Assembly (NCBI GenBank): GCA_964016885.1
Contig: OZ024752.1
Location: forward strand, 16,306,001-16,370,000
Reading direction: 5' to 3'
Source: Eledone cirrhosa
Lineage: Eukaryota
DNA length: 64,000 nt
The notes below the pieces were generated by a model. That model saw nothing but the letters and a program-made list of their open reading frames with translations, searched no databases and was not told the origin of the DNA. This document shows, in pieces, positions 1-50,590 of the stretch. A program made the position numbers and the translations under genes. Numbering within the stretch: the stretch's first letter is position 1; each line of letters begins with the position of its first letter.

Positions 1-3000
1 ACAACACTAGATATACCAGCTAGACAACACTGTAGATATACGACCTAGACAACACTAGATATACCACCTAGACAACACTAGATATACCACCTAGACAACA
101 CTAGATATACCACCTAGACAACAGTAGATATACCACCTAGACAACACTAGATATACCACCTAGACAACACTATATATACCACCTAGACAACACTAGATAT
201 AGCACCTAGACAACAGTAGATATACCACCTAGACAACACTAGATATACCACCTAGACAACACTGTAGATATACCACTTAGACAACACTAGATATACCACC
301 TAGACAACACTAGATATACCTCCTAGACAACACTGTAGATATACCAGCTAGACAACACTAGATGTACCACCTAGACAACACTGTAGATATACCACCTAGA
401 CAACACTAGATATACCACCGAGACAACACTAGATATACCACCGAGACAACACTAGATATACCACCTAGACAACACTGTAGATATACCACCTAGACAACAC
501 TAGATATACCAGCTAGACAACACTGTAGATATACCACCTAGACAACGCTAGATATACCACCTAGACAACACTAGATATACCACCTAGACAACACTAAATA
601 TACCACCTAGACAATGCTGTAGATATACCACCTAGACAACACTAGATATAGCACCTAGACAACACTAGATATACCACCCTGACAACACTAGATATACCAC
701 CTAGACAACACTAGATATACCACCTAGACAACACTAGATATACCACCTTGACAACAGTAGATATACCACCTAGACAACACTAGATATACCACCTAGACAA
801 CACTAGATATACCACCTAGACAACACTGTAGATATACCAGCTAGACAACACTAGATGTACCACCTAGACAACACTGTAGATATACCACCTAGACAACACT
901 AGATATACCACCGAGACAACACTAGATATACCACGTTGACAACACTAGATATACCACCTAGACAACACTAGATATACCACCTAGACAACACTAGATATAC
1001 CACCTAGACAACGCTGTAGATATACCACCTAGACAACACTAGATATAGCACCTAGACAACACTAGATATACCACCTTGACAACACTAGATATACCACCTA
1101 GACAACACTAGATATACCACCTAGACAACACTAGATATACCACCTTGACAACAGTAGATATACCACCTAGACAACACTATATATACCACCTAGACAACAC
1201 TAGATATACCACCTAGACAACAGTAGATATACCACCTAGACAACACTAGATATACCACCTAGACAACACTGTAGATATACCACCTAGACAACACTAGATA
1301 TACCACCTAGACAACACTAGATATACCACCTAGACAACACTAGATATACCACCTAGACAACACTGTAGATATACCACCTAGACAACACTAGATATACCAC
1401 CTAGAAAACAGTAGATATACCACCTAGACAACACTGTAGATATACCACCTAGACAACACTGTAGATATACCACCTAGACAACACTGTAGATATACCATCT
1501 AGACAACACTAGATGTACCACCTAGACAACACTGTAGATATACCACCTAGACAACACTAGATATACCACCGAGACAACACTAGATATACCACCTTGACAA
1601 CACTAGATATACCACCTAGACAACACTAGATATACCACCTAGACAACACTAGATATATCACCTAGACAACACTGTAGATATACCACCTAGACAACACTAG
1701 ATATACCAGCTAGACAACACTGTCGATATACCACCTAGACAACACTAGATATACCACCTAGAAAACACTAGATATACCACCTAGACAACACTAGATATAC
1801 CACCTAGACAACACTGTAGATATACCACCTAGACAACACTAGATATACCACCTAGACAACACTAGATATACCACCTAGACAACACTAGATATACCACCTA
1901 GACAACAGTAGATATACCACCTAGACAACACTAGATATTCCACCTAGACAACACTAGATATACCACCTAGACAACACTAGATATAGCACCTAGATAACAG
2001 TAGATATACCACCTAGACAACACTAGATATACCACCTAGACAACACTGTAGATATACCACCTAGACAACACTAGATATACCACCTAGACAACACTAGATA
2101 TACCACCTAGACAACACTGTAGATATACCAACTAGACAACACTAGATGTACCACCTAGACAACACTGTAGATATACCACCTAGACAACACTAGATATACC
2201 ACCGAGACAGCACTAGATGTACCACCGAGACAACACTAGATATACCACCTAGACAACACTGTAGATATACCACCTAGACAACACTAGATATACCAGCTAG
2301 GCAACACTGTAGATATACCACCTAGACAACACTAGATATAGCACCTAGACAACACTAGATATACCACCTAGACAACACTAGATATGCCACCTAGACAATG
2401 CTGTAGATATACCACCTAGACAACACTAGAAATACCACCTAGACAACACTAGATATACCACCTAGACAACAGTAGATATACCACCTAGACAACACTAGAT
2501 ATACCACCTAGACAACACTGTAGATATACCACCTAGACAACACTAGATATACCACCTAGACAACACTAGATATACCACCTAGACAACACTGTAGATATAC
2601 CAGCTAGACATAACTAGATGTACTACCTAGACAACACTGTAGATATACCACCTAGACAACACTAGATATACCACCGAGACAACACTAGATATACCACCTT
2701 GACAAAACTAGATATACCACCTAGACAACACTAGATATACCACCTAGACAACACTGTAGATATACCACCTAGACAACACTAGATATACCAGCTAGACAAC
2801 ACTGTAGATATACCACCTAGACAACACTAGATATACCACCTAGACAACACTAGATATACCACCTAGACAACACTAGATATACCACCTAGACAACAGTAGA
2901 TATACCACCTAGACAACACTAGATATACCACCTAGACAACACTATATATACCACCTAGACAACACTAGATATAGCACCTAGACAACAGTAGATATACCAC

Positions 3001-6000
3001 CTAGACAACACTAGATATACCACCTAGACAACACTGTAGATATACCACTTAGACAACACTAGATATACCACCTAGACAACACTAGATATACCTCCTAGAC
3101 AACACTGTAGATATACCAGCTAGACAACACTAGATGTACCACCTAGACAACACTGTAGATATACCACCTAGACAACACTAGATATACCACCGAGACAACA
3201 CTAGATATACCACCGAGACAACACTAGATATACCACCTAGACAACACTGTAGATATACCACCTAGACAACACTAGATATACCAGCTAGACAACACTGTAG
3301 ATATACCACCTAGACAACGCTAGATATACCACCTAGACAACACTAGATATACCACCTAGACAACACTAAATATACCACCTAGACAATGCTGTAGATATAC
3401 CACCTAGACAACACTAGATATAGCACCTAGACAACACTAGATATACCACCCTGACAACACTAGATATACCACCTAGACAACACTAGATATACCACCTAGA
3501 CAACACTAGATATACCACCTTGACAACAGTAGATATACCACCTAGACAACACTAGATATACCACCTAGAAATCACTCTAGATATACCACCTAGACAACAC
3601 TAGATATACCACCTAGACAACACTCTAGATATACCACCTAGACAACACTAGATATAGCACCTAGACAACACTAGATATACCACCTAGACAACAGTAGATA
3701 TAGCACCTAGACAACACTAGATATACCACCTAGACAACAGTAGATATACCACCGAGACAACACTAGATATACCACCTAGACAACACTAGATATACCACCT
3801 AGACAACACTGTAGATATACCACCTAGACAACACTAGATATACCACCTAGACAACACTTGATATACCACCTAGACAACACTAAATATACCACCTAGACAA
3901 CACTGTAGATATACCACCTTGACAACACTAGATATACCACCTAGACAACAGTAGATATACCACCTAGACAACACTAGATATACCACCTAGAGAACACTAG
4001 ATATACCACCTAGACAACACTAGATATACCACCTAGACAACACTAGATATGCCACCTAGACAACAGTAGATATACCACCTAGACAACACTAGATATACCA
4101 CCTAGACAACACTAGATATACCACCTAGACAACACTGTAGATATACCAGCTAGACAACACTAGATGTACCACCTAGACAACACTGTAGATATACCACCTA
4201 GACAACACTAGATATACCACCGAGACAACACTAGATATACCACCTTGACAACACTAGATATACCACCTAGACAACACTGTAGATATACCACCTAGACAAC
4301 ACTAGATATACCAGCTAGACAACACTGTAGATATACCACCTAGACAACACTAGATATACCACCTAGACAACACTAGATATACCACCTAGACAACGCTGTA
4401 GATATACCACCTAGACAACACTAGATATAGCACCTAGACAACACTAGATATACCACCTTGACAACACTAGATATACCACCTAGACAACACTAGATATACC
4501 ACCTAGACAACACTAGATATACCACCTTGACAACAGTAGATATACCACCTAGACAACACTATATATACCACCTAGACAACACTAGATATACCACCTAGAC
4601 AACAGTAAATATACCACCTAGACAACACTAGATATACCACCTAGACAACACTGTAGATATACCACCTAGACAACACTAGATATACCACCTAGTCAACACT
4701 AGATATACCACCTAGACAACACTAGATATACCACCTAGACAACACTGTAGATATACCACCTAGACAACACTAGATATACCACCTAGACAACAGTAGATAT
4801 ACCACCTAGACAACACTGTAGATATACCACCTAGACAACACTGTAGATATACCACCTAGACAACACTGTAGATATACCATCTAGACAACACTAGATGTAC
4901 CACCTAGACAACACTGTAGATATACCACCTAGACAACACTAGATATACCACCGAGACAACACTAGATATACCACCTTGACAACACTAGATATACCACCTA
5001 GACAACACTAGATATACCACCTAGACAACACTAGATATATCACCTAGACAACACTGTAGATATACCACCTAGACAACACTAGATATACCAGCTAGACAAC
5101 ACTGTCGATATACCACCTAGACAACACTAGATATACCACCTAGAAAACACTAGATATACCACCTAGACAACACTAGATATACCACCTAGACAACACTGTA
5201 GATATACCACCTAGACAACACTAGATATACCACCTAGACAACACTAGATATACCACCTAGACAACACTAGATATACCACCTAGACAACAGTAGATATACC
5301 ACCTAGACAACACTAGATATTCCACCTAGACAACACTAGATATACCACCTAGACAACACTAGATATAGCACCTAGACAACAGTAGATATACCACCTAGAC
5401 AACACTAGATATACCACCTAGACAACACTGTAGATATACCACCTAGACAACACTAGATATACCACCTAGACAACACTAGATATACCACCTAGACAACACT
5501 GTAGATATACCAACTAGACAACACTAGATGTACCACCTAGACAACACTGTAGATATACCACCTAGACAACACTAGATATACCACCGAGACAGCACTAGAT
5601 GTACCACCGAGACAACACTAGATATACCACCTAGACAACACTGTAGATATAGCACCTAGACAACACTAGATATACCACCTAGACAACAGTAGATATAGCA
5701 CCTAGACAACACTAGATATACCACCTAGACAACAGTAGATATACCACCGAGACAACACTAGATATACCACCTAGACAACACTAGATATACCACCTAGACA
5801 ACACTGTAGATATACCACCTAGACAACACTAGATATACCACCTAGACAACACTTGATATACCACCTAGACAACACTAAATATACCACCTAGACAACACTG
5901 TAGATATACCACCTTGACAACACTAGATATACCACCTAGACAACAGTAGATATACCACCTAGACAACACTAGATATACCACCTAGAGAACACTAGATATA

Positions 6001-9000
6001 CCACCTAGACAACACTAGATATACCACCTAGACAACACTAGATATGCCACCTAGACAACAGTAGATATACCACCTAGACAACACTAGATATACCACCTAG
6101 ACAACACTAGATATACCACCTAGACAACACTGTAGATATACCAGCTAGACAACACTAGATGTACCACCTAGACAACACTGTAGATATACCACCTAGACAA
6201 CACTAGATATACCACCGAGACAACACTAGATATACCACCTTGACAACACTAGATATACCACCTAGACAACACTGTAGATATACCACCTAGACAACACTAG
6301 ATATACCAGCTAGACAACACTGTAGATATACCACCTAGACAACACTAGATATACCACCTAGACAACACTAGATATACCACCTAGACAACGCTGTAGATAT
6401 ACCACCTAGACAACACTAGATATAGCACCTAGACAACACTAGATATACCACCTTGACAACACTAGATATACCACCTAGACAACACTAGATATACCACCTA
6501 GACAACACTAGATATACCACCTTGACAACAGTAGATATACCACCTAGACAACACTATATATACCACCTAGACAACACTAGATATACCACCTAGACAACAG
6601 TAAATATACCACCTAGACAACACTAGATATACCACCTAGACAACACTGTAGATATACCACCTAGACAACACTAGATATACCACCTAGTCAACACTAGATA
6701 TACCACCTAGACAACACTAGATATACCACCTAGACAACACTGTAGATATACCACCTAGACAACACTAGATATACCACCTAGACAACAGTAGATATACCAC
6801 CTAGACAACACTGTAGATATACCACCTAGACAACACTGTAGATATACCACCTAGACAACACTGTAGATATACCATCTAGACAACACTAGATGTACCACCT
6901 AGACAACACTGTAGATATACCACCTAGACAACACTAGATATACCACCGAGACAACACTAGATATACCACCTTGACAACACTAGATATACCACCTAGACAA
7001 CACTAGATATACCACCTAGACAACACTAGATATATCACCTAGACAACACTGTAGATATACCACCTAGACAACACTAGATATACCAGCTAGACAACACTGT
7101 CGATATACCACCTAGACAACACTAGATATACCACCTAGAAAACACTAGATATACCACCTAGACAACACTAGATATACCACCTAGACAACACTGTAGATAT
7201 ACCACCTAGACAACACTAGATATACCACCTAGACAACACTAGATATACCACCTAGACAACACTAGATATACCACCTAGACAACAGTAGATATACCACCTA
7301 GACAACACTAGATATTCCACCTAGACAACACTAGATATACCACCTAGACAACACTAGATATAGCACCTAGACAACAGTAGATATACCACCTAGACAACAC
7401 TAGATATACCACCTAGACAACACTGTAGATATACCACCTAGACAACACTAGATATACCACCTAGACAACACTAGATATACCACCTAGACAACACTGTAGA
7501 TATACCAACTAGACAACACTAGATGTACCACCTAGACAACACTGTAGATATACCACCTAGACAACACTAGATATACCACCGAGACAGCACTAGATGTACC
7601 ACCGAGACAACACTAGATATACCACCTAGACAACACTGTAGATATACCACCTAGACAACACTAGATATACCAGCTAGGCAACACTGTAGATATACCACCT
7701 AGACAACACTAGATATAGCACCTAGACAACACTAGATATACCACCTTGACAACACTAGATATACCACCTAGACAACACTAGATATACCACCTAGACAACA
7801 CTAGATATACCACCTTTACAACAGTAGATATACCACCTAGACAACACTAGATATACCACCTAGAAATCACTCTAGATATACCACCTAGACAACACTAGAT
7901 ATACCACCTAGACAACACTCTAGATATATCAACTAGACAACACTAGATATAGCACCTAGACAACACTAGATATACCACCTAGACAACAGTAGATATACCA
8001 CCTAGACAACACTGTAGATATACCACCTTGACAACACTAGATATACCACCTAGACAACACTAGATATACCACCTAGACAACACTTGATATACCACCTAGA
8101 CAACACTAGATATACCACCTAGACAACACTAGATATACCACCTAGACAACACTAGATATACCACCTAGACAACAGTAGATATACCACCTATATAACACTA
8201 GATATACCACCTAGACAACACTGTAGGTATACCACCTAGACAACACTAGATATACCACCTAGACAACAGTAGATATACCACCTGGACAACACTGTAGATA
8301 TACCACCTAGACAACACTAGATATACCACCGAGACAACACTAGATATACCACCTAGACAACACTAGATATACCACCTAGACAACACTGTAGATATACCAC
8401 CTACACAACACTAGATATACCACCTAGACAACACTTGATATACCACCTAGACAACACTAGATATACCACCTAGACAACACTAGATATACCACCTAGACAA
8501 CACTAGATATACCACCTAGACAACACTAGATATACCACCTAGACATCAGTAGATATACCACCTAGACAACACTGTAGATATACCACCTAGACAACACTGT
8601 AGATATACCACCTAGACAACACTAGATATACCACCTAGACAACACTGTATATATACCACCTAGGCAACACTAGATATACAACCTTGACAACACTAGATAT
8701 ACCACCTAGACAACACTAGATATACCACCTAGACAACACTGTAGATATACCACCTAGACAACACTAGATATACCACCTAGACAACACTGTAGATATACCA
8801 CCTAGACAACACTAGATATACCACCTAGACAACACTAGATATACCACCTAGACAACACTGTAGATATACCACCTAGTCAACACTAGATATACCACCTAGA
8901 CAACACTAGATATACCACCTAGACAACACTAGATATACCACCTAGTCAACACTAGATATACCACCTAGACAACACTAGATATACCACCTAGACGACACTG

Positions 9001-12000
9001 TAGATATACCACCTAGACAACACTGTAGATATACCACCTAGACAACGCTAGATATACCACCTAGACAACACTAGATATACCACCTAGACAACACTGTAGA
9101 TATACCACCTAGACAATACTAGATATACCACCTAGACAACACTTGATATACCACCTAGACAACACTAGATATACCACCTAGACAACACTGTAGATATACC
9201 ACCTTGACAACACTAGATATACCACCTAGACAACAGTAGATATACCACCTAGACAACACTAGATATACCACCTAGAGAACACTAGATATACCATCTAGAC
9301 AACACTAGATATACCACCTAGACAACACTAGATATACCACCTAGACAACAGTAGATATACCACCTAGACAACACTAGATATACCACCTAGACAACACTAG
9401 ATATACCACCTAGACAACACTAGATATACCACCTAGACAACACTAGATATACCACCTAGACAACAGTAGATATACCACCTATACAACACTAGATATACCA
9501 CCTAGACAACACTGTAGATATACCACCTAGACAACACTGTAGGTATACCACCTAGACAACACTAGATATACCACCTAGACAACACTAGATATACCACCTA
9601 GACAACACTAGATATACCACCTAGACAACACTAGATATACCACCTAGACAACAGTAGATATACCACCTAGACAACACTGTAGATATACCACCTAGACAAC
9701 ACTGTAAATATACCACCTAGACAACACTAGATATACCACCTATACAACACTAGATATACCACCTAGACAACACCGTAGATATACCACCTAGACAACACTG
9801 TAGGTATACCACCTAGACAACACTAGATATACCACCTAGACAACAGTAGATATACCACCTAGACAACACTGTAGATATACCACCTAGACAACACTAGATA
9901 TACCACCGAGACAACACTAGATATACCACCTAGACAACACTAGATATACCACCTAGACAACACTGTAGATATACCACCTACACAACACTAGATATACCAC
10001 CTAGACAACACTTGATATACCACCTAGACAACACTAGATATACCACCTAGACAACACTAGATATACCACCTAGACAACACTAGATATACCACCTAGACAT
10101 CAGTAGATATACCACCTAGACAACACTGTAGATATACCACCTAGACAACACTGTAGATATACCACCTAGACAACACTAGATATACCACCTAGACAACACT
10201 GTATATATACCACCTAGGCAACACTAGATATACAACCTTGACAACACTAGATATACCACCTAGACAACACTAGATATACCACCTAGACAACACTGTAGAT
10301 ATACCACCTAGACAACACTAGATATACCACCTAGACAACACTGTAGATATACCACCTAGACAACACTAGATATACCACCTAGACAACACTAGATATACCA
10401 CCTAGACAACACTGTAGATATACCACCTAGTCAACACTAGATATACCACCTAGACAACACTAGATATACCACCTAGACAACACTAGATATACCACCTAGT
10501 CAACACTAGATATACCACCTAGACAACACTAGATATACCACCTAGACGACACTGTAGATATACCACCTAGACAACACTGTAGATATACCACCTAGACAAC
10601 GCTAGATATACCACCTAGTCAACACTAGATATACCACCTAGACAACAGTAGATATACCACCTAGACAACACTAGATATACAACCTAGACAACACTAGATA
10701 TACCACCTAGACAACAGTAGATATACCACCTAGACAACACTGTAGATATACCACCTAGACAACACTAGATATACCACCTAGACAACACTAGATATACCAC
10801 CTAGACAACACTGTAGATATACCACCTAGACAACACTAGATATACCACCTAGACAACACTAGATATACCACCTAGACAACACTTGATATACCACCTAGAC
10901 AACACTAGATATACCACCTAGACAACACTGTAGATATACCACCTAGACAACACTGTAGATATACCACCTAGACAACACTAGATATACCACCTAGACAACA
11001 CTAGATATACCACCTAGACAACACTAGATATACCACCTAGACAACACTGTAGATATACCACCTAGACAACACTAGATATACCACCTAGACAACACTAGAT
11101 ATACCACCTAGACAACACTAGATATACCACCTAGACAACACTAGATATACCACATAGACAACACTAGATATACCACCTAGACAACACTTGATATACCACC
11201 TAGACAACACTAGATATACCACCTAGACAACACTGTAGATATACCACCTAGACAACACTGTAGATATACCACCTAGACAACACTAGATATACTACCTAGA
11301 CAACACTAGATATACCACCTAGACAACACTGTAGATATACCACCTAGACAACACTAGATATACCACCTAGACAACACTAGATATACCACCTAGACAACAC
11401 TGTAGATATACCACCTAGACAACACTAGATAGACCACCTAGACAACACTAGATATACCACCTAGACAACACTGTAGATATACCACCTAGACAACACTAGA
11501 TATACCACCTAGACAACACTAGATATACCACCTAGACAAAACTGTAGATATACCACCTAGACAACACTAGATATACCACCTAGACAACAGTAGATATACC
11601 ACCTAGACAACACTAGATATACCACCTAGACAACACTAGATATACTACCGAGACAACACTAGATATACCACCTAGACAACAGTAGATATACCACCTAGAC
11701 AACACTAGATATACCACCTAAACAACACTAGATATACCACCTAGACAACACTAGATATACCACCTAGACAAGACTAGATATACCACCGAGACAACACTAG
11801 ATATACCACCGAGACAACACTGTTGATATACCACCTAGACAACACTGTAGATATACCACCTAGACAACACTAGATATACCACCTAGACAACACTAGATAT
11901 ACCACCGAGTCAACACTAGATATACCACCGAGACAACACTAGATATACCACCTAGACAACACTAGATATACCACCTAGACAACACTGTAGATATACCACC

Positions 12001-12125
12001 TAGACAACACAAGATATAGCATCTAGACAACACTAGATATACCACCTAGACAACACTGTTGATATACCACCTAGACAACACTGTTGATATACCACCTAGA
12101 CAACACTAGATATACCACCTAGACA
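1..12125. repeat. Tandem satellite, 23-bp unit ACAACACTAGATATACCACCTAG with 25-bp variant ACAACACTGTAGATATACCACCTAG; runs off the window start
   Basis: Continuous head-to-tail array of roughly 500 units, ending abruptly at ...CCTAGACA|GGTC (~12125). Confidence 0.98.
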
Positions 12126-15349: not shown

Positions 15350-18145
15350 GACATAAAGACAACCATGAAGCTATAGAGACAACAACACAATTGATAATAA
15401 CAATACTCCCTGGAATTCCACTTTCTACGACCCATCTGATAAGTGCTTCAACATAGGACGCCTTTACCCTACAACGCTTTTGTTTAACAAACGATCGAGT
15501 TTACCGTCGCAAGCTGATGACCAAACGGAGGCACAATTTACAATAACCATAACTAAACGTTAAAAGATTCTAGAACAGCATAGCAGGAAACAGAATAATA
15601 TGGAGGCCCAGCAACTGGAGGGAATCCGAAAATGGCTTGCGTAAGCTCATGCAGCGCTCACAAAATGGAGAGACTGTATGCTTTCCAGCAGACGAGTCTG
15701 GCAGAATATCAGTTAACAGCCTGCCAAACTACATCCAGGCAATGCAACCCCACATCATCAACACAAGAGAGGTAATACCACAGAGCATGAGGAAAAGGAA
15801 AAAACCTCAACGCTCATATGATGATGTGGTCTTGCATAATGCAGCCTAATAAACTGACTGTCAACAACTTCCAGGCCTGGAACAACGATATACTAACGCT
15901 GTATGGGCTTCGCAAAGACCACAAGGCAAATAGTGATCCAGTCACAGGACCACCAACACGGCCAGGCTGTGGAGCTAACATTGCTAGCAACTACAGACTC
16001 TCTTACTTCCCCGCCCTATCATCTAAATGTCCTCAGATATATGCGACAGCATGGAGGACCTCCTAAGCAGAATCAGTGAATGCAATCTGTCTAGAGGCCT
16101 AACAGGCTGTACAATACGTAGCATGGATGTAGTGTCACTATACCCATCCATCGACGTTTATTTTGTTGTAGAAATGATCAGCGAGAGCGATGTGGAATTC
16201 CGTGGAATTGATACCAGTGAGTTTGGTCTCCTAATTAAACTCAGACACAATAAGGAATATTTATACACACAGACCTCAACAGCCTCTTCCCCACAAGGCC
16301 AGAAAGAGGCAGGCCACCTACCATTACCTCAATGGTCGAGAAGACCAACACAGAAAGATAGAGCGGGTGGACTGGAGCAGTACGGACCCCCGAAAGCCAT
16401 AATGAATTAAAGAAAATTATCACATATGTGGTGGAGGCCAGTATAAAACTAACCCTTAAGGAACATATGTTCAATGTTAATGGCATAACATATGCCCAAG
16501 AGGAGGGGAAGCCATTGGTGTTAATATTGCAGTTGACATAACTAACCTTTTTATGGTATGGTGGGACAGAAGACTTAAGGAACAATTAGACAACAATTTT
16601 ATATCCCTGACTATGTATTCCCGCGACATAGATGACATAAACATCGTAGTAAAAACACCCCCACAGGAGAACAGTCAGGAATTAGAGAATAACACAATGG
16701 CAAGCATCCAGCAAATAACTAACTCCATCACCCAGAGTATTAAAGTTACTATAGACTACCCAAATAAACACCCTAACCATAGATTACCCGTACTAGACAC
16801 AGAACTCTGGTTGGAAACTATTAGTGATAGAACGCGAATCCATTCGCATTAGGCCAAACCCATGACCTCCAAATACCAGATCCATCGAAACGCAGCTGTT
16901 ACAGATCACATAAAAATCAATATACTGATTACGGACTTAGTAAGAGTGATGAGAAACGTGTCCCGCATGTGCAAGCCTAAAGAATTAGAGAGACACACAC
17001 AACACTTCTTCCACTGCATGCAGTTCTCTGGCTACAATCAGAGAGACAAGATCGGGGTATATAAAGGAGCCAGAACCAAATGGGCAAGGATTGTAGAAAA
17101 TTATGCGAATGGAACTTGCCCCATGTATAGGAGCAAATTTTGGAACTGAATTGAAAGGATTAGGAATAAGGCAAATAAAATAAGCTCATGGTTTGGTAGC
17201 AATAAATACCAGAGTGTAATGTTCATCAATACAACCCCTAGAGGTGAACTAGCTTATATATTTAGAAGGGCCCTAGACAAGGTTAAATTAAATATTAAGA
17301 TAGTTGAAAAACTAGGTATTCCCATAAAAAACATAGCCATTTCAAAGAACCTCCTGCATTGACAGGAAATGCATAGACTGCAATCTAAGCTCGCAAACTA
17401 ACTGCAAAACTAGGAACGTAGTCTATAGCATAAGATGTACTGAGGGACAGTGTAGGAATAAGAACATAACATACATAGGTGAAACAGCCCGTAGCATAGG
17501 AGAAAGGATAAGTGTGCACTGGTGAGAACTCCAGGATGGGAAAAACTCATCAGTACTCCACCAACATGCCAAAATAGAACATAGAACATTATATCCGCAC
17601 ATAGAAAAGACAAATTCCAGAGGCGACAAACGTAAACGAACTCCAACCAAAATTAAACAGAAAACATGAGTGGAATAACAACATCACAACTAGTAATTAA
17701 GGACAAAATGAAAACATACAGACACACACAAACAAAATTAACAAAACAAATCAGACACACACAGATAGAACAAACAACCAACTAGTGACAAGTAAATATA
17801 CACATAAATAAATAAATAAACACTCACACACACACACACGGACGGTACGCATGCGCACACTTAGCACACAACACACAAAAACAAGATGATGTTGGACAGC
17901 ACAAAGGAGGGACACAAAAACCTAGTCACTGAGCAGGTCACAGACTGTGTGACGAAAGAGCTTTGACAATATATAAACAACCTTCAGGTTATCGAACGAA
18001 CCAGCCAACCGGAAATGTATAATAAATTGAAGTGAAAACCAATAGGTGCGTGTGTTTTTATTGGCAACATGACCCTCCCAAAGTACAACAATTTCTGTTT
18101 CAACACACGTTTTCAGATAAAAAGTCATGCAAAACAAATTTTAAA
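15350..18145 (+). mobile_element. Decayed Penelope-like element (RT + GIY-YIG endonuclease), Naiad/Neptune-like
   Basis: Frameshifted fragments SMDVVSLYPSID, YSRDIDDI, DYPNKHPNHRLPVLD, KPMTSKYQIHRNAA. GIY-YIG region NCKTRNVVYSIRC..YIGETARSIGER..H..H at 17400-17570. HHR-like motif downstream; ends at (TA)n. Confidence 0.85.
17925..17967 (+). ncRNA. Degenerate type I hammerhead ribozyme in PLE 3' region
   Basis: GTCA-CTGAGCAG-GTCACA gactg TGTGAC-GAAA-GAGC-TT-TGAC. Stems I and II pair; the core deviates from CTGANGA. Confidence 0.55.
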
Positions 18146-27419: not shown

Positions 27420-27800
27420 TAAATAACCTTTTTCTTATTCTTGTTCTCCTGAAGTAACACTACAATTCTCTGTTTCAAAGTACTAAGAATTACTCTTCTT
27501 TGTCGCCAGTTGTGTCGGTAATTAGCCCAGCATGCATACGTAAAGCTCGAAGGCAAGATCATCTAACTACGAAAATTGGCCTCATTCCCAGCACGTTACA
27601 GTCAACCTTAAATCAGTTGTCGTTATCTACTTGTTGTAGCACATCGAGTTCTTCGCTAAGCAGGTTCAATTCATAAAGTTCAAACAATGTCTCCGATCCG
27701 CTGCTTACTCCGAACAATTTAAGTGAGTGGAAAGCTGTATAGATCCTCCAATAATTGAATTGAACATGTCTCCATAGTTAAAGATTGAATTTAACCTATG
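27420..27800 (-). mobile_element. Decayed RTE-like LINE 3' remnant
   Basis: Weak motif remnants only (METCS; A..R..W). Confidence 0.3.
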
Positions 27801-27883
27801 TTGTCATGTCGGGCTTCTCAAACACATCTCTTATATACATATATGAAAAGTATAGAAAGGGGTCAGCGAAGTATATTATTATG

Positions 27884-28140
<257 letters not shown>

Positions 28141-31100
28141 TTGTGTACCTAACTTGAGCTTGTGGAAGGGGACTGGAGAGGTTGTTGAGTGGTTTAAAGA
28201 AATTAAATATAACAATAATAATAAGTTTATTCAACTAGATATCACTAACTATTATTCATCTATTACCCCTAATCTACTAAATAAGGCACTAAATTACGCA
28301 TTCAAACATACAGACTTAACTAGCAATGAAATGCACATTATATTATCGGCTAGGAAAACATTGATAGAATTTAATGACCAACTATGGACCAGAGCAGATA
28401 GAGATAACAATTTCGACATTACTATGGGATCATCCGACTCAGCTCAGGTAACTGACCTTGTGGGCCTATTTTTAATCAATTCGCTGCATAGGAAAATACC
28501 CGGTGCTACCGGAGGTTTATATAGAGATGACATGCTTTTACTTATTGAAAATAATAACTCTGAACTAAATAGAAAAAGAAAACAAATTACACAATTTTTT
28601 AATTACTTTAATCTAAAAATAGAAATTGAGAATAACCATAGAATAGTCAATTTCCTAGATGTAACATTAAATCTCAACACATGTCTTCACTATCCATTTC
28701 ACAAGTTGAATGAAAACTTAAACTATGTCAGCTTTAACTCTAACCACCCCAGATCTGTTAAAAATACTATAGTAAACTCTGTTCAATCACGTATCTCTAG
28801 AATCTCATCTAATAAAAAGATTTTCGACGAAAAAGCCCATTATTACAATGAAGCGTTAGCTAGAGCAGGATATAGTGATAAAATTATGTACATAGATAAT
28901 AATAGACAAACTAACCAAAATAACAACAATTTTAATTACGGCAACAACTTTAACAACTATAATAGAAAGCATTACAATAATTCCAAAAGCCAAAAAAGAA
29001 ATAGAACTAGGAATATAATATGGTTTGCCCCCCTTTCTCACTAAACATTAAAACCCACATCGCTAAACTATTTTTTAATGCTCTTGATAATCGCTTCCCT
29101 AGAACACATAGGTATCACTCAATTTTCAATAGACATACTATAAAATTAACCTACTCATCCACCAAAAATTTAGCACAAAATATTAATAGAATAAATAATA
29201 GGAATTTAAAATCTAGCCAAAATACCGATAATAGCATAAATAATATCCAAGTTAACAAATGTAACTGTAGAGATAGATCTAAATGTCCGTTAAATAACAA
29301 TTGCTTAGTTAAAAATATAATATACAACTGTAATGTTAAAACGGACTTAAATTCTTTTAACTATGTTGGTTCCACCTCAACAGAATTTAAACTTCGCTAT
29401 AATAACCACAAGAATTCTTTCACAGATCCAAGCAAAAAATCCTCAACATCACTATCAGGCCTACTCTGGCAACTTAGGCATGATAACGTTGGATATTCAA
29501 CGGCTTGGAATATAGTCTCAAGAGGGATTCCTTTTAATTCATCCTCTGAGACATGTGACCTCTGCGCGGAGGAGATATTCTTTATACTAAAATCTAAAAA
29601 TTCCCTTAATTTACGGACAAATTTATTCAGTTGCTGCAGACATAGATTGAACTCAACTTTTAAATATAAATATAAATTTAAAATGTAGTATATTTAATTT
29701 GATTTATAATTATTTATGAAACTCGCCGATAAATCTTTCGATTCCTTTTTATTTTAAACATTCTTCATGAATAATTAAACTACCCTAAAAGCTGATGCTC
29801 CAAATATATCGAATAAATTTTACACTAGATAAACTTCTATATTAAATATAAGACCATCTGTAGGTCAAATGGGTATCCTAAACTTTTGGAATGTTTTCTG
29901 CTAGACAGGATTTGGTAAATAATTTTTGGTTTTGTTTGCTTGTGATTCTGATGCTTATAACGAACTTGGCAATATATTGTCAATTAACTTTGAAGGGTTG
30001 ATCTCTGTGGTTGATTTGCGGGGCATACTATGTTTTATTTTTATTTTAATATTTTTAATATTTTTAATATTTTTATTTTTAATATTTTTTTGTATTTTTT
30101 GTATTTTTTTGATTTTTTTTGTTTTTTATTTACTTTTTGTTTCTGATATTTTTATTTTTATTGATATATTGATATCTGTTCTCTATTTATGCTTGAACGA
30201 TAATCATGTAGAGTAAAGACATGAATAGTATTGTTAAAATTAATGTAGACTCTATATATATTTGTGTGTATGTACATATATATGTATACTAGAATTTTTA
30301 TAGCACAATGAGAATGTTTTCGTGTGAAATAGGAATTTGCAGAGCTGATCACGTAAATTCACATGGATGTATATAGTATAAAATCTGGGATACCCTTCTA
30401 TTTTTCTCAACTCTAATATAAACCTATGAATTTTAAACTAGACATATGATCATTATTTTTCACACATTATTGATACGTGTCTCATTCATGAATACTGATA
30501 TTTACATTATAATGCCTGTTTTATACGAATTGGTATTTTTTACATTGATGAAACATAGTGTTTTAAATCTGCCTCTTTTTTGTCTGGATATTTTTCTTTT
30601 CTTTTCTCTCTATGTAACGGCTGTTTTCTCTCTTAACCACATATATCTCTCTCTACATTAATACTAGAGCTAAATAAATAAATAAATAAATAAATAAATA
30701 TATCATTGATACGTCATTCAACTGGTGCACAACTACCTATTTTCTTTCTCTCTATCTCTATCTATATCTATCTCTCTATATTTTCTCTCTCTCTCTCTCT
30801 CCTCTCTTCTCTCTCTCTCTCTCTATCTATCTCCCTCTGTGTTTTTTCCTCTCTCTATATATCTCTCTCTGTTTCTTTACATGAATTTCTTCTCTCTATA
30901 TATCTCTCTATATCTATCTCTCTCTATTTAGTTGCATGCATTTCTTCTTTTTCTTCGTTTTTCTTTCTTTCTTTTTTTATAACTGTCCCTAATATTTTTT
31001 CCACTACCAAATCAACTTTTCAAATAGAAGTCGAAGTTGAAAGGTATGTCGAATCTATCTATTTATAAGACTGTTTATATTGTATTTTGTCTGAAGAAGG

Positions 31101-31278
31101 CATAACATATTTTTAATATGATATCCCTGAAATATATATAATGAAATAAATATGGTTTTATAAAGATAGTTTCCATTTATTTAATATCGTAAATATACTC
31201 CAAATACTTGTTGAGTGCTTTTATATCAGTTATAAATATTTACTCGTTGTTAACCCAACAATTTAAATAAAACTTTGC
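28141..31278 (+). mobile_element. 5'-truncated Penelope-like element (probably Hydra clade) between (TA)n tracts
   Basis: RT: [45 protein letters not shown] (frameshift in C-run ~29030). Linker CNCRDRSKC. GIY-YIG NIIY..YVGST..FKLRYNNH. Terminal CDLC; stop 29688; 1.6-kb 3' region with HHR. Confidence 0.93.
31083..31148 (+). ncRNA. Type I hammerhead ribozyme in PLE pLTR
   Basis: TATTTTGT-CTGAAGA-AGG..CATAT..ATATG..CCT-GAAA-TATATA-TA-ATGAAATA. Confidence 0.85.
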
Positions 31279-36627: not shown

Positions 36628-36690
36628 TAATTTTGAGATAGAGCGCTGGTGATGTTTGCTCTAATCTGCATTAGAGCAAACATCACGAGC

Positions 36691-37468
36691 ATATATGTAT
36701 ACAGACATACAGTAGTATGTATATATATATACATACATGCACACATACATATATATGTACGGATGGATTTACCGAACATTTATTATAATGCTCGGTGTGT
36801 TTGTAAACGAACATCCAGAATTAAGCCGTACAGTGTTTAGCAACCATCGTTGCTCTTTTGTTCAACACTGACAAAGGAACGATGTACTAGTTTCAAGCTT
36901 ATTAACTATCGTCAGCACCGTATACCTTCCTGCCAGATGATTGAACGTCTGAAAGTACATACTTTCCTGATGCATATTAACGGCTGAGCAGCCTAATTTG
37001 CATATCGAGTGAGTATGTACGTATACATACTTATATTTAAGTAACAGCCGTACTAAGAGTGAGAAATGAATTTCGTTTCATTTTTTCCGTTTATCGTTTT
37101 CGGTGCGCCGGGCTGATTAACTCATTCGATATGCAAATTAGGCTGCTCAGCCGTTAATATACATAAAGAAAGTATATACTTTCAGACGTTTAATCATCTG
37201 GCAAGAAGGTGTACGGTGCTGACGATATCTAATAAGCTTGAAACTAGTACATCGTTCCTTTGTCAGTGTTGAACAAAAGAGCAACGATGGTTGCTAAACA
37301 CTGTACGGCTTAATTCGGGATGTTTGTTTACAAACACACCGAGCATTATAATAAATGTTCGGTAAATCCATACATACATATATATATGTGTGCATGTATG
37401 TATATATATACACATACTACTGTACGTCTGTATACATATATGTATGTACGTACACATACTTATATTTA
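36691..37468. mobile_element. Hammerhead retrozyme-like element, locus 1: inverted partial monomer (36691-37013, minus) plus a full monomer with terminal redundancy (37014-37468, plus)
   Basis: HHRs at 36880-36920 (-) and 37214-37254 (+). 26-nt repeat at 37014 and 37443 (period 429). Homologous to 42207-43441. Confidence 0.85.
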
Positions 37469-37478
37469 TATATATATA

Positions 37479-41599: not shown

Positions 41600-43733
41600 T
41601 CTATCTATATATTACTAAAAGTCTGTGATTGCTTGCTTGCTTGTCTTTAATGTAATACGGGCAAAAGGGCGCATAACGGGAAAATATTTTGAAAGGAAGT
41701 TGCCCCTGAAATGAGAATACAAATAGAATAAAACAAGATTCGCGTAAATCGAAGGACGGGTTCCCGAAACATGGTAGTTTTCCGGGTACCTTCATAAATA
41801 GCCAAAACGGTGCATAATGGAAAAATACTCCGAAAGTAACATAACCCTGCAAACCTTCATAAATAGCCAAAACAGTGTATAATGGCAAAATACTCCGAAA
41901 GTAAAATAACTCTGAAATGGGAATACAAACGGAATAAAACAAGTTTGGCGTAAATCGGACATAGACAATATTTTCATTATTCAAAAATATTTTTAAGTGA
42001 ATAAAATTTTTAAAATATATTGAAACATTTTTTTTCAGTGATTTGTCAGTGAATATGATTTCAAAACATACAAGTTGTTTGTACTTTAAGTATCTATATT
42101 TCAGCTTTCTTTAAACAGACGATATTTTAATTATTAAAAAAAACAACATTTTAAGTGAATATGACTGAAAAATACGAGTTGTTTTACAGTAAATGTTTAT
42201 ATTTTTATATAAGTATGTATACGTAAATACATATATATATTCAGACGTACAGTAGTATGTATATATATATACATACATGCACACATATATATATGTACGT
42301 ATGGATTCACCAAATATTTATTATAATGCTCGGTGTGTTTGTAAACAAACATCCCATATTAAGCCGTAGTGTCTAGCAACCACCGTTGCTCGTTTGTTCA
42401 ACACTGACAAAGGAACGCTGTACTAGTTTCAAGCTTGTTAGCTATCGTCAGCAACGTATACCTTCCTGCCAGATAGTGTGAACGTCCGAAAGTATATACT
42501 TTCCTTATGCATATTAACGGCTGAGTAGCCCAATTTGCATATCGAGTGGGTTAATCGGCCGGGTGCACTGAAGACGATAAACGGAAAAAATGAAACGACA
42601 TTTCCTTTCCCACTCTTAGTATGGCTGTTACTTAAATATAAGTATGTATACGTACAGTAGTATGTATATATATATATATACATACATGCAGGAATGTATA
42701 CGTTGCTGACGATAGCTAATAAGCTTGAAACTAGTACAGCGTTCCTTTGTCAGTGTTGAACAAACGAGCAACGGTGGTTGCTAGACACTACGGCTTAATA
42801 CGGGATGTTTGTTTACAAACACACCGAGCATTATAATAAATGTTTGGTGAATCCATACGTACATATATATATGTGTGCATGTATGTATATATATATATAC
42901 ATACTACTGTACGTCTGTATACATATATGTATGTACGTATACATACTTATATTTAAGTAACAGCCATACTAAGAGTGGGAAAGGAAATGTCGTTTCATTT
43001 TTTCCGTTTATCGTCTTCAGTGCACCCGGCCGATTAACCCACTCGATATGCAAATTGGGCTACTCAGCCGTTAATATGCATAAGGAAAGTATATACTTTC
43101 GGACGTTCAACTATCTGGCAGGAAGGTATACGTTGCTGACGATAGCTAACAAGCTTGAAACTAGTACAGCGTTCCTTTGTCAGTGTTGAACAAACGAGCA
43201 ACGGTGGTTGCTAGACACTACGGCTTAATACGGGATGTTTGTTTACAAACACACCGAGCATTATAATAAATATTTGGTGAATCCATACGTACATATATAT
43301 ATATGTGTGCATGTATGAATATATATATACATACTACTGTACGTCTGTATACATATATGTATGTACGTGTACATACTTATATTTATGTAACAGCCGTACT
43401 AAGAGTGGGAATTGAAATTTCGTTTCATTTTTTCCGTTTATATTTTTGTTTTTGTTAAATAGAATATTTAAGTGAATGTGATTTCGAAAATGCAAGTTGT
43501 TGGTACAGTAAGTATTTATATTTTAACTTTCTTTACACAGACAATATTTTAATTTTTTTTAATTATTTTTAAGTGAATACGATTAAAAAGATATGTTTTG
43601 ACATATTCAAAAAATATTCTTAAGTGAGAATGACCTTTAGTTTCATTTTACATTATATACATATCTATGTATATTTTGATTATTTAAACATCATTTTTAA
43701 GAGAACGTGACCCAGCAGGTCACGGGTGGCTAG
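41600..43733 (+). mobile_element. Non-autonomous Helitron 1, containing the retrozyme insertion
   Basis: A|TCTATCTATATATTACTAAAAG start; 3' hairpin CGTGACC-cagca-GGTCACG then CTAG at 43730-43733; internal subrepeats. Confidence 0.85.
42207..43441. mobile_element. Hammerhead retrozyme-like element, locus 2: inverted monomer (42207-42690, minus) plus ~1.75 head-to-tail 430-bp monomers (42690-43441, plus)
   Basis: HHRs at 42416-42456 (-), 42701-42741 (+), 43131-43171 (+): CGTTG-CTGACGA-TAGCT aata AGCTT-GAAA-CTAG-TA-CAGCG. Flanking GTTTATATTTTT at 42195 and 43436. Confidence 0.9.
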
Positions 43734-44633
<900 letters not shown>

Positions 44634-46665: not shown

Positions 46666-49600
46666 CTAAATATAGACGGTGCTGCAAAGTTTTTGGGGCC
46701 AGTGAACCCTACGACCTGAACGGGTCGTGGTCTTGTAACGTGGCGATGGTGGTGGTGTAGGGACAGGCGATGATGGTGGTTCAGGAACAGTCGTTCGCTC
46801 AACAGGCAAATACGAAGGGGTTCGTGGATCAGGAACCACAGCGTCCGTATCAAGGTGCGCCTGCTTAAGCCTGTCTAATGTAACTGTCACCCTGGACCCC
46901 TTAATATCTAACGTGAAATGCTTAGCCGAGCGCGCTAAGACACGGTAAGGTCCAGTGTAAGGCTGTGTGAGCGGGGGCTTCACCGTATCATTCCTTACAA
47001 AGACATGCGTCCACGAGGCAATATCCCTCGGGACAGCAGTCTTGACAGTTTGTTTCCTAGTGTCCATTGGCGGCAAATCCTGGAAATAGGAGCGCAAACG
47101 GGACACGTAGGAGGCGTGATCTTGGGCATCAAGATCGATAGGGGCAAGCATTTGCCCGGGCAACGTCAGAGGGGCACCGTACAGTACTTCGGCCGGTGAA
47201 AATCCAAAGTCAACCTTCACCGTTGACCGAATCCCTAGTAGCACAATAGGGAAGTACTCGCTCCAATGCGCCGAGTCCATTGAGGCCATTAAGGAGGCCT
47301 TCAGTTGGCGGTGAAAACGCTCCACCATACCATTCGAAGCGGGATGGTATGCCGTAGTTCGAATGCGTTTAGCACCAATTATTTTTGACAGCTCGAGGAA
47401 AAGGCTCGACTCGAACTGTCGTCCACGGTCGGTAGTTATTGTGGATGGAACTCCATAACGAGAGATCCATCCAGACACAAGAGCACGTGCTGTTGTCTCC
47501 GCGGTGATGTTTTTCAAGGGGATGGCCTCAGGCCATCTCGAAAAACGGTCAATGACGGTAAGTAGATAAGAAAAACCATCGCTGACAGGCCAAGGTCCCA
47601 CTATGTCAATATGAATATGCGAAAAACGCGCATCTGGGTTAGCAAAGGTACCCAGGGAAGCCTTGACGTGTCGATGGACCTTTGATCTCTGGCAAGCGAC
47701 GCAGGAACGGCACCAAGCAGCAATTTCACGCCTCATATTTGGCCAGAAAAATCTAGCTGATATGAGCTTTGCTGTGGCAGAAGATCCTGGATGCGAGATA
47801 CAATGTAATCCCAGAAACACGGTCCGACGATGATTCTCTGGAACGAAGGGCCTAGGCACGTCCAAAGAGACGTCGCAGAGAATTTGGCCAACTGCAGTCG
47901 ACAGAGGCAAGTATTTCATCTCGCAATTCACAAACTCGGGCGATGTGACATCCAGTGACTCAAGGGGAGGCTGATCCGCAGCCAAACGAGTCAGATCTAT
48001 GTCAGAGGGTGACGAGATCGCTGTCACGGGTAAGCGGGACAAAGCATCGGCCGCTGTATTTAGTGAACCCGGAATGTGCTGGATATCACTCGTATATTGC
48101 GAGATGAAATCAAGGTGTCTCGTCTCTCTGGGCGAGTATTTATCAGCCTTCGCTCTCAAAGCAAAAGTCAATGGTTTATGGTCAGTGAGGATAGTAAATT
48201 GTCTACCCTCTAGCACATGTGAAAAATGTTTCACGGCCAAATAGATGGCTAAAAGCTCTCTTCCAAAGGTGCTGTAGCGCGTCTCAGCAGGATTTAGCTT
48301 TTTGGAAAAAAACTCCAGCGGTTGCTGGTAACCATTGATGTTTTGCTGTAGTACTGCGCCCACAGCGATATCCGATGCATCAACACAAAGCGTTAGCTTT
48401 GCACCGGGTACCGGGTGAGTCAGTAACGAAGCATTAGCCAAAACAGTTTTGGCGTGCTGAAAATCAGCAAGTTGAGTGTCTGTCAAAGAAATATCTTTGT
48501 TCTTCCTCCGACAATTTTTCAAAATTTCTGTCAGGGAGAAAAGCAACTTGGCACAATTTGGCACGAAACGCCTATAAAAGTTAACCAGACCTAAGAACTG
48601 GCGTAACTGACGTAGTGAGGTCGGTGGAGGCAAATCCTCTATGACCTTAACTCGCTCAGGCGGGGGTCGAATTCCGTCAGCATCGATGACGTGACCCAAG
48701 AAAGTCAGTGACTCAGCACCAAAAACACATTTGGGTGAATTAAGCTGCACGTTATACGCCTTCAATCGGCGGAAAAGAAGATTCAAATGGTGCGTATGCT
48801 GCTCAGGAGAAGAACTAGCAATGAGCAGGTCGTCAATATAGGTATAGACGAAATCGAGGCCGCGAGTAACCTCATCCATAAACCGCTGAAAAGTACTAGC
48901 GGCATTCCTTAATCCGAACGGCCTAGTCAAAAACTCGAAAGACCCAAATGGCGTAACTATAGCCGTTTTTGGAATGTCATTTTTATGGACAGGAATTTGA
49001 TGGTACGCACGAATTAAATCCAGTTTGGAGAATATCTTGCATCCCTGCAACGAAGACGCAAAGTCTTGCAGATGAGGGATAGGATAACGGTCCGGTACCG
49101 TTATCGAATTCAGGCGTCGATAATCTCCAGTAGGTCTCCAATCGCCATTCGCTTTCGGTACCATGTGTAATGGGGACGCCCACGGGCTCGTGGACGGACG
49201 AATAATCCCCATTTGCAGCATATGATCAAATTCTGATCGTGCTGCTTTGAGTTTGTCCGGAGGCAAGCGACGAGGGCGAGAGAAAACGGGATCACCAGTT
49301 GTAGATATGAAGTGCTCCGTGGTATGAGTAGGTTCATCAAATCGAAAATTCCCCTGTGTCAGTTGCGGGAACGAGTTCAACAACGCATCGAAAGGATCAC
49401 CGGTGTTAGCAAGAAAAAATATCGGGCTAACCGTTGGAACTCCCGCTGCCTTGCCAACAACAGTTAATCCCGTGATGCCATCAATTAGGCGTTTACCACG
49501 AAGGTCCACCGTCAATGAAAAATGGTGGAGAAAATCCGCGCCTAGAATCGGATACGGCAAGGCAGCGACAGTAAATATCCATTTAAACTCGCGCCGCAGA

Positions 49601-49860
49601 TTACGAAACTGCAAAGGTAACGATATTTGTCCGAAAGTTCGAATCGGCGAACAATTTACTGCCTGCAACTCAATAGGCGTCTCAGGGGGAGTCTCCTTCA
49701 TACAACACACAGGCCATACGGAACAAGCTGCACCTGTGTCAACCAGAAAAGCTCTACCTGACAGCAGGTCCTCAATGAAAAAGTGGCGGTTAGATGTTGT
49801 TTCGCAGAGCGCACTATCCGCCGTTAGTGACTCTGGTCGTCTTTTCCCTCGTAAGTACAA
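46666..49860 (-). CDS. pol: Gypsy Pol polyprotein (PR-RT-RNase H-IN), open frame of 1064 aa
   Basis: [72 protein letters not shown]. Confidence 0.97.
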
Positions 49861-50590
49861 GGAGGCCTACAACGGGCAGCTTTTTTACCATATCTTTCAT
49901 GGTAATAACAATATGTTGTTCCTGGTGTGTTGGAAGGGCTACGGTGGCGAGAAGTTGAATAACGTCGTGAGCGGCTCCTCTGCCGTCCAAAGGACCTGAA
50001 TTCCGTGCACAACTCCGCCATTTGACGAGTCATGGCTTCCATAGTGGTGATTAATTTGTCATCAGACGCTGACGAGCGTGATTGAGGAAGAGAAGAGGAA
50101 GCAACGTACTTTGGCTTCGAAGTGTCTCTCTTCGTCACCTCTACAATTTTGTCAGCAGAGACAGCAATGTGATCCAGGGTATTCACCTCTAGCATCGCCT
50201 GTACCTCTTGAGGTAGGCGAGAGAAGAACAATTGCTTCAGGAAAGGGCTATCCTGATCTTGGGAATCGCTCAAATCCCGCAAATGCCGGAGAAAAGCGGT
50301 AGGGGTCCTGTCACCTAATCGTTCGTCCTCGATCAATGACCGAAAACGACTCTCTACCGACTTACAATTCCTCCTCAAAATCTCGCCCTTCAAAAACTCA
50401 TACGTCAAGTCAGAGGGGGGGGGTCTGTAATTAGGTCTTGGACCGAATCTGCTAGATTAGGGGGAAGGCCGCTAATCAGTACAGCGAGGCGCTGGTCAGA
50501 TTCGGTCTTACAGACCGTAAAATACGCCTGTAACTGGGCAAACCACATCTTAGGTTTTCCAGTAAAGGCGGGCAAATGTGGTACATTCAT
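49824..50590 (-). CDS. gag: Gypsy Gag, with one frameshift in a 9-nt homopolymer at 50415-50423
   Basis: [40 protein letters not shown]. Overlaps pol at a GGGAAAA heptamer. Confidence 0.9.

What the first reader, a model, noticed from the sequence alone, without database searches (positions are those of the whole stretch)
42207..43441. Candidate 430-nt hammerhead retrozyme (circular-RNA-forming non-coding retroelement)
Seen: a non-coding unit repeated head-to-tail with period exactly 430 bp. Each monomer has one minimal type I hammerhead (CGTTG-CUGACGA-stem II-GAAA-CUAG-UA/CAGCG; predicted cuts after 42736 and 43166). An inverted monomer precedes the array. GTTTATATTTTT flanks both sides, and its first 6 nt match the element's own 3' end. 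Known: metazoan non-LTR retrozymes are short tandem repeats with type I HHRs that yield circular RNAs and are thought to be mobilised by PLEs; a palindromic stem III loop (here CUAG) favours dimeric cleavage. Inference: this is such a family, possibly undescribed in this lineage, producing a 430-nt monomer or circle (42737-43166).
Basis: partly seen in the sequence, partly recalled or inferred. Interest (0 to 1): 0.9.

Follow-up and report, generated by a model that had tools for sequence, protein, structure and literature searches.

The report
Two-armed Penelope-type hammerhead retrozyme insertion
This is one copy of a 430-base non-coding repeat with a predicted self-cutting RNA motif, present about ten thousand times in this animal genome, whose mirror-image insertions carry the footprint of Penelope-type jumping genes and were likely written into DNA from both sides of a break, in the youngest copies probably by copying round an RNA circle.

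Summary
The insertion is a 0.48-kb inverted arm (42207-42690) joined head-to-head to a 1.75-unit direct arm (42688-43441). It has three type I hammerheads, and their stems change compensatorily across related families. The HHR 21-mer has 9,385 exact matches in the genome. Copies do not end at the ribozyme cut. They end at two fixed sites 59 nt apart (m216, m275), mostly in (AT)n. Of 34 two-armed insertions with both ends at or near these sites, 33 pair one short with one long end. This is the Penelope-like element (PLE) 'tail' footprint. No sampled 5' end runs into a PLE ORF (0 of 57), so the family is non-autonomous; its helper was not found. Young arrays have near-identical units on both arms (3.7+5.0 here; 6.9+12.9 and 17.6+8.0 in a 468-nt sister family), which favours a circular template. 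This window's copy does not show that: its tail differs from its internal unit. No RNA data were available. Verdict: new member of the metazoan non-LTR retrozymes, with useful mechanistic footprints. This scan had already noted the same family (422-nt form) and sister families elsewhere in this genome.

The parts
42195..42206 (+). Left copy of 12-nt flanking repeat GTTTATATTTTT (target-site duplication of 6-12 nt; no empty allele seen)
   Evidence: host repeat continues across the insertion (D15/D17); one search showed no empty-site joint
42207..42690 (-). Inverted arm: 5' end near m140, 24-nt deletion, one full unit, 3' end at the short family end m216 (42207)
42415..42457 (-). Type I hammerhead of the inverted arm, predicted cut after H17 at 42421
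42688..43441 (+). Direct arm, 1.75 units (m382-430, m1-430, m1-275), 3' end at the long family end m275
42688..42690 (.). GCA microhomology at the head-to-head junction
   Evidence: sequence
42700..42742 (+). Type I hammerhead 1, predicted cut after 42736
42737..43166 (+). Predicted cut-to-cut 430-nt RNA monomer (not shown as RNA)
   Evidence: circular MFE -132.5 kcal/mol, z -5.8, much of it from the AT hairpin
42855..42952 (+). AT-rich long hairpin (m119-216) just before the short end; repeated at 43285-43382
43048..43095 (+). Candidate internal promoter: ATGCAAAT octamer (43048) and TATATA (43090) upstream of the HHR; motif meaning recalled, function untested
   Evidence: octamer positions 107-115 of 114-115 units; TATA-like box and neighbours aligned across 430/468/511 units
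43130..43172 (+). Type I hammerhead 2, predicted cut after 43166
43383..43441 (+). 59-nt PLE-type tail (m217-275) with a stem-loop, at one end of the insertion only
43436..43447 (+). Right copy of the 12-nt repeat; first 6 nt are also the element's 3' end
36690..37469 (.). Second, older two-armed insertion of the same family (about 91% identity), HHR at 36885 (-) and a stem-II-damaged one near 37219 (+)

Best explanation
This is one insertion of an abundant non-coding hammerhead repeat with Penelope-type ends, likely a non-autonomous retroelement (non-LTR retrozyme) that borrows a Penelope-like RT-endonuclease and, in its long young arrays, probably uses a circular RNA as template. Shown: unit, HHR structure conserved by compensatory change, copy number, two fixed 3' ends 59 nt apart, (AT)n targets, head-to-head arms pairing one short with one long end, scattered 5' ends, no ORF upstream in the sample. 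Inferred steps: (1) units are transcribed, perhaps from the octamer-TATA module just upstream of the HHR; (2) paired HHRs cleave through the palindromic ACUAGU helix III to release 430/422-nt monomers that a host ligase closes; (3) a PLE protein cuts both strands of an AT-rich site and each DNA end primes reverse transcription internally, one at m216 and one at m275; (4) the two cDNAs grow through the HHR site, stop at random and are joined 5'-to-5' by 0-3 nt microhomology; (5) old arrays are later reshaped by DNA-level duplication, deletion and conversion. Odds: PLE-mobilised non-autonomous family 0.9; priming from both DNA ends 0.8; circle as template for the long young arrays 0.6; monomeric circle as template for this window's copy 0.35.
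For: Ends: 54 of 138 arms at m210-220, 56 at m268-276, 28 elsewhere; 20 of 20 head-to-head pairs with two canonical ends are short+long (two sit in duplicated blocks of L101); 13 of 14 more in young loci. 91 of 110 canonical ends run into (AT)n against 6.1% of flank positions. Coding PLE loci in this genome show an HHR followed by two ends about 50-60 nt apart into (AT)n. The same tail was tied to two internal RT start sites, with both strands cut and extended, for a purified PLE (PMC11167929). HHR: 10 of 16 pairs change on both sides, 93.8% of cells paired, 0 of 500 shuffles; 468-nt sister unit is colinear at 62-64% identity. Non-autonomy: 0 of 57 free 5' ends lead into a PLE ORF. Read-through of the cut: of 56 arms reaching within 30 nt of the cut, 0 end within 3 nt and 50 pass it by more than 10 nt. 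Circle: L251 has 3.7+5.0 units with 344T in all 9 covering units of both arms, seen in 1 of 24 insertions; sister-family insertions of 6.9+12.9 units (18 of 18 full units identical) and 17.6+8.0 units (23 of 24 identical). Units within an insertion differ by about 2%, between insertions by 5%.
Against: No cleavage or RNA was observed. The helper PLE was not found in 80 PLE-bearing loci of more than 10,000 candidates. In this window's copy the two arms share 230A, 247G, 253G, 279C, 283A and 106A, while the tail lacks the three it covers and the upstream unit lacks 106A; L256 likewise has tail-region variants in three internal units but not in its tail. A monomeric circle would not give this without later conversion or duplication. 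Clear DNA-level or mixed-template patterns exist: L097 A-B-A-B with a non-B first unit, L121 two subfamilies in one arm, L130 284C in 6 of 7 direct-arm units only, mosaic variants in the 30-unit array at C1:5.74 Mb. L266 has two long ends (275 and 280). In the purified PLE, HHR mutants inserted normally and uncleaved RNA was the main substrate. Only 1 of 9 Xenopus retrozyme dimers cleaved in vitro. The covariation set is 6 sequences from about 4 lineages, with a structure I drew myself.
Confidence: 0.65

Rival explanations
1. Non-autonomous PLE derivative copied from uncleaved linear multimer transcripts. The hammerhead is inherited from a pLTR and is weak or serves only 5' processing; long arrays come from long source arrays and DNA-level amplification; circles, if any, are by-products.
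For: This window's copy fits a heterogeneous linear template in which RT started at the unit with the intact tail hairpin; L256, L121, L097 and L130 patterns; HHR cleavage dispensable for insertion in vitro; most arms are under 2 units (122 of 138 span 0 or 1 HHR). One arm of the youngest sister haplotype runs into an assembly gap, so a long source array may be hidden.
Against: Arrays with no point mutation are long on both arms at several loci. Linear copying can only shorten arrays, and no source longer than the 17.6-unit arm is visible among 69 matches at 7 loci. Compensatory conservation of the whole HHR across about 38% divergence implies selection on cleavage.
Confidence: 0.25
2. The unit is simply the pLTR of a rare coding PLE, and the copies are its 5'-truncated remains.
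For: Same HHR-plus-tail anatomy as coding PLE ends in this genome; Xenopus retrozymes resemble pLTRs; only 80 PLE loci were examined.
Against: Arms that extend past one unit continue into another unit, never into an ORF (0 of 57 free 5' ends; up to 7.5 units). No pLTR match by BLAST or by a three-family profile.
Confidence: 0.06
3. Linear cut monomers are the template and RT jumps precisely from the 5' end of one to the 3' end of the same or another monomer, building tandem arms without a circle.
For: Would explain both homogeneous and mixed-subfamily arms (L100, L121) and tails that differ from internal units.
Against: No pile-up of 5' ends at the cut (0 of 56 within 3 nt); junction bases m428-m2 are at consensus in 137-140 of 140 crossings, which imprecise jumping would not give.
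Confidence: 0.04

Closest known systems
Metazoan non-LTR retrozymes (Cervera and de la Pena 2020, PMC7229834: passages and Discussion read; Li, Clavereau and Pollet 2026, 10.64898/2026.07.22.740005: parts 1-3 of 5 read)
   Same: Short low-GC tandem unit, one type I HHR per unit, no LTR/PBS/PPT, dispersed monomers to multimers, PLE mobilisation and circular template proposed; palindromic tetraloop and U-U base of stem II recall the two axolotl HHRs.
   Different: Unit slightly above the 170-400 nt RNAs reported. The two fixed 3' ends, 59-nt tail, head-to-head arms and (AT)n targeting are not described for retrozymes in the parts I read. Here RNA and cleavage are untested.
EN+ Penelope-like elements (Craig et al. 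2021, 10.1101/2021.04.23.441226: passages; Frangieh et al. 2024, PMC11167929: parts 1-2 of 4; Cervera and de la Pena 2014, PMC4209133: passages)
   Same: Partial tandems, inverted 5'-truncated copy, tail at one end, AT-rich or microsatellite targets, HHR upstream of two internal RT start sites; circle-templated more-than-unit copying was proposed in 2014.
   Different: No ORF. Tail is 59 nt rather than 30-40 nt (coding PLEs here have about 50-60). Multi-unit arms of a very short unit make template topology readable.

Membership tests
Type I hammerhead ribozyme | Core CUGANGA, GAAA, UH with stems I-III | tested here: met
   base of stem II is U-U rather than G-C; no Rfam hit
Type I hammerhead ribozyme | Self-cleavage after H17 (monomer or dimer) | not testable with these tools
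   no assay; palindromic ACUAGU seen in sequence
Metazoan non-LTR retrozyme | Short tandem unit under 50% GC with one type I HHR per unit | tested here: met
Metazoan non-LTR retrozyme | Non-coding and not attached to an ORF | tested here: met
   longest stop-free stretch round the unit 112 codons; 0 of 57 free 5' ends into a PLE ORF; sample only
Metazoan non-LTR retrozyme | Dispersed, many copies, monomers to multimers | tested here: met
   9,385 and 10,376 exact matches, control 0; 0-7 HHRs per arm
Metazoan non-LTR retrozyme | Target-site duplication longer than 4 nt where present | tested here: inconclusive
   6-12 nt at this copy, no empty allele; unreadable in (AT)n targets
Metazoan non-LTR retrozyme | Expressed as linear and circular monomer RNA | not testable with these tools
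   no RNA holder listed; indirect DNA evidence mixed
Penelope-like element (as passenger) | Two fixed 3' ends defining a tail on one end only | tested here: met
Penelope-like element (as passenger) | Inverted 5'-truncated copy and variable 5' truncation | tested here: met
   37 of 93 insertions have opposed arms; 5' ends scattered
Penelope-like element (as passenger) | AT-rich or microsatellite target | tested here: met
   91 of 110 against 6.1% background
Penelope-like element (as passenger) | Sequence link to a specific autonomous PLE pLTR | tested here: inconclusive
   none in 80 loci; more than 10,000 GIY-YIG candidates unexamined
Autonomous Penelope-like element | RT plus GIY-YIG ORF between pLTRs | tested here: not met

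The most novel reading that the evidence does not exclude
These families record two-ended, rolling-circle target-primed reverse transcription: a Penelope enzyme cuts both strands of an (AT)n site and each end copies round one small ribozyme-made RNA circle from adjacent start sites, writing mirror-image arrays of up to 25 identical units in one event. A lineage of octamer-TATA-hammerhead units (430/422, 468, 511 nt and more distant relatives) has repeatedly exploited this route and is still active.
Probability: 0.55. Interest if true: 0.75.

Novelty: new member of a known kind. Interest (0 to 1): 0.52.

Why it matters
Retrozyme mobilisation by PLEs through circular RNA, and the origin of PLE tandem and inverted structures, are proposed but not shown in the papers read here, and one in vitro study found HHR cleavage unnecessary. 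This family gives nucleotide-exact predictions: RT starts at m216 and m275, cut at m430/m1, both target ends primed. It also gives very young long arrays. A circle-versus-linear assay with a PLE protein is therefore straightforward. If the circle model holds, it is a natural rolling-circle retrotransposition route and a source of newborn satellite arrays. The copy in this window is itself an ordinary, older member.

Tried and rejected
Rfam scan: no hammerhead family hit; only AT-hairpin miRNA matches below gathering scores, rejected. First descriptor run missed the motif because it required a pair at the base of stem II; relaxed. Pfam did not recognise six window frames from the PLE-like regions, so those labels and the clade names Neptune and Poseidon rest on recalled motifs and on the GIY-YIG family search. 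Helper search: BLAST and a three-family nhmmer profile over 80 PLE loci found only nested insertions of the family and other non-coding HHR families. No RNA holder listed; this is no evidence either way. Empty allele: none seen in four DNA runs. RNA-editing scars in the 430 family: A>G 64 against T>C 44 among single-copy variants, p=0.04 as one of six tests, and 4 against 3 among shared variants; inconclusive. Co-folding two HHRs did not return the dimeric ribozyme; uninformative. Pile-up of 5' ends at the cut: not seen, though three arms (two independent) stop 4-6 nt short of it; ends are BLAST-defined. Literature searches for a description in cephalopods and for tail or inverted structure in retrozymes listed no such paper; the O. 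vulgaris repeat paper has no occurrence of ribozyme, hammerhead or retrozyme in its main text. Repbase and Dfam could not be searched, and I saw no supplements (bioRxiv ones are closed), so the family may be catalogued there unnamed. Lunse et al. 2017 was not held; only its title was seen.

Full report
Observation. The stretch 42688-43441 repeats at lag 430 with 94.4% ungapped identity; neighbouring lags give 19-43%. I number the unit from the predicted cut (m1 = 42737). The direct arm runs m382 to m275 (1.75 units). The inverted arm, 42207-42690, runs from about m140 through a 24-nt deletion and one full unit to m216, and joins the direct arm through GCA. A hammerhead descriptor finds H17 at 42736, 43166, 42421 (-) and, in a second copy at 36690-37469, 36885 (-); 0 of 5000 shuffled monomers match. 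Rfam finds no hammerhead. The 12-nt flanking repeat is real but half of its right copy is element sequence, and no empty allele was seen.

The ribozyme. A colinear sister unit of 468 nt (62-64% identity; 7,175 exact matches of a tail 27-mer), an older unit of about 511 nt and a 310-nt family share the core and the AA(C/U)A loop 2. On six aligned HHRs, 10 of 16 pairs change on both sides and 93.8% of cells pair; 0 of 500 shuffles reach this (few lineages, structure drawn by me). Helix III is 1-2 bp with a palindrome (ACUAGU; ACGCGU in the 310 family), the form reported to need dimers (PMC4209133, passages). Cleavage itself is untested.

The family. Two plain patterns give 9,385 and 10,376 exact matches in G000 (3.0 Gb), controls 0. 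From loci L001-L130 I tiled 93 insertions with 138 arms; arms cut by a locus edge were dropped. 3' ends: 54 at m210-220, 56 at m268-276, 28 elsewhere. Of 31 simple head-to-head pairs, 20 have two canonical ends and all 20 are short plus long (two lie in duplicated blocks of L101); 11 have one non-canonical end. In 20 young loci, 13 of 14 pairs are short plus long and L266 has two long ends. 91 of 110 canonical ends run into (AT)n against 6.1% of flank positions. 5' ends are scattered. Among 70 canonical arms in loci picked by a pattern downstream of the cut, 56 reach within 30 nt of it, none ends within 3 nt, and 50 pass it. Contigs of four runs under other organism labels hold the unit at 85-99%. 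The lineage looks octopod to me from recalled repeats; I did not test this.

Link to Penelope-like elements. Partial tandems, an inverted 5'-truncated copy, a one-sided tail and microsatellite targets are the described PLE anatomy (10.1101/2021.04.23.441226, passages). A purified PLE cuts and extends both strands and starts RT at two internal sites that delimit the tail (PMC11167929, parts 1-2 of 4). Coding PLE loci here show the same layout with tails of about 50-60 nt, and L205 has one short and one long arm. The strict short-plus-long pairing is best read as both DNA ends priming, one at each site (inference). The unit is not attached to an ORF: 0 of 57 free 5' ends lead into PLE coding sequence. 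No pLTR among 80 PLE-bearing loci matches it, out of 10,595 GIY-YIG candidates, so the helper is unknown.

Circle or linear template. For: in the young 422-nt subfamily (1,867 matches), L251 has 3.7+5.0 units with 344T in all 9 covering units of both arms, a variant seen in 1 of 24 insertions, and L252 has 4.7+4.8 units. In the sister family one haplotype has 69 matches at 7 loci with arms of 6.9+12.9 (18 of 18 full units identical), 17.6+8.0 (23 of 24), 8.8, about 10.8, at least 4.7+1.9, 0.5+1.8 and 0.4+0.9 units. Long, unmutated arrays on both arms are what two RTs circling one monomer would leave. Against: a long linear source is not excluded, as one arm enters an assembly gap. Of 70 variants covered by three or more units in the young set, 49 are in one unit, 11 in a subset, 5 in all units of a single arm and 5 in all units of both arms. 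L097, L121, L130, L256 and the 30-unit array at C1:5.74 Mb show duplication blocks, mixed subfamilies or tails that differ from internal units. In this window's copy the arms differ at 1 of 323 scored sites and share four rare non-CpG variants, while tail and internal unit differ at 5 of 56. That means a heterogeneous multimer template or later conversion between the arms, not a plain monomeric circle. HHR mutants still insert in vitro, and 8 of 9 Xenopus dimers did not cleave.

Possible promoter. An ATGCAAAT octamer and a TATATA box lie 88 and 46 nt upstream of the HHR core; the octamer is near-invariant in the 430 family apart from 317T, and the region aligns across three families. A further HHR family at L203 carries the same module. 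The meaning of these motifs is recalled; function is untested. I looked at this and at editing bias after seeing earlier scan notes; editing bias was inconclusive.

Comparison and novelty. It meets every DNA-level feature of metazoan non-LTR retrozymes that I could test; expression as circles was not testable. PLE mobilisation and circle-templated tandem cDNA are proposed in PMC7229834 (Discussion), PMC4209133 and PMC7761336 (passages); a pLTR origin is argued in the 2026 preprint (parts 1-3 of 5). Seven searches listed no paper describing this family or the two-armed footprint in retrozymes; Repbase, Dfam and supplements were not seen. Earlier notes of this scan reached the same reading for the 422-, 467- and 310-nt families; they are not independent support, and my reading was recorded before the look-up.

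Verdict. Real feature; new member of a known kind; interest 0.52. The value lies in the family's exact, testable footprint of PLE-driven, probably circle-templated insertion, rather than in this older copy.

Noticed in passing
window 36690-37469: Second, older two-armed copy of the same family, 5 kb from the finding.
   Followed up: partly
window 27782-29688 (+), 55197-55931 (-), 56939-58712 (+): Broken RT and GIY-YIG-like frames of one PLE-like family (motifs recalled; no Pfam hit). Other type I HHRs with 6-nt AT loops lie at 31140 (+) and 53551 (-); whether they belong to this family was not tested.
   Followed up: partly
window 16027-16852 (+) and 18551 (-): Degenerate RT fragments of another PLE-like family with 11,406 genome candidates and near-intact relatives (L192, 823-aa frame); a further HHR at 18551.
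   Followed up: partly
window 46666-50456 (-): 1066-aa open frame with protease, RT, RNase H and integrase-like motifs plus an upstream gag-like frame: an LTR retrotransposon (recalled motifs), seen in the ORF list only.
   Followed up: no
window 1-12125: 23-nt satellite, 516 copies, 92% matches.
   Followed up: no
G000 C1:30.83 Mb, C18:30.95 Mb (L231-L232, L271-L272): Youngest haplotype of the 468-nt sister family carries three A>G changes within 6 nt that turn the octamer ATGCAAAT into GTGCGGAT, shared by its arrays; could be RNA-editing scars.
   Followed up: partly
L102, L134, L114: 310-nt tandem family with a homologous HHR (CGCG loop), also two-armed in L102.
   Followed up: partly
L203:2000-2700 (-), L171, L209: Another non-coding HHR family with repeated octamer motifs and the same TATA-GGCAGG lead-in, and a longer helix III.
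   Followed up: partly
loci L001-L250: Well over a dozen distinct type I HHR forms turn up by chance in flanks; this genome is very rich in hammerheads that Rfam-type scans may miss.
   Followed up: no
window 44222-44372: Near-perfect 75-nt inverted repeat next to an (AT)n tract.
   Followed up: no
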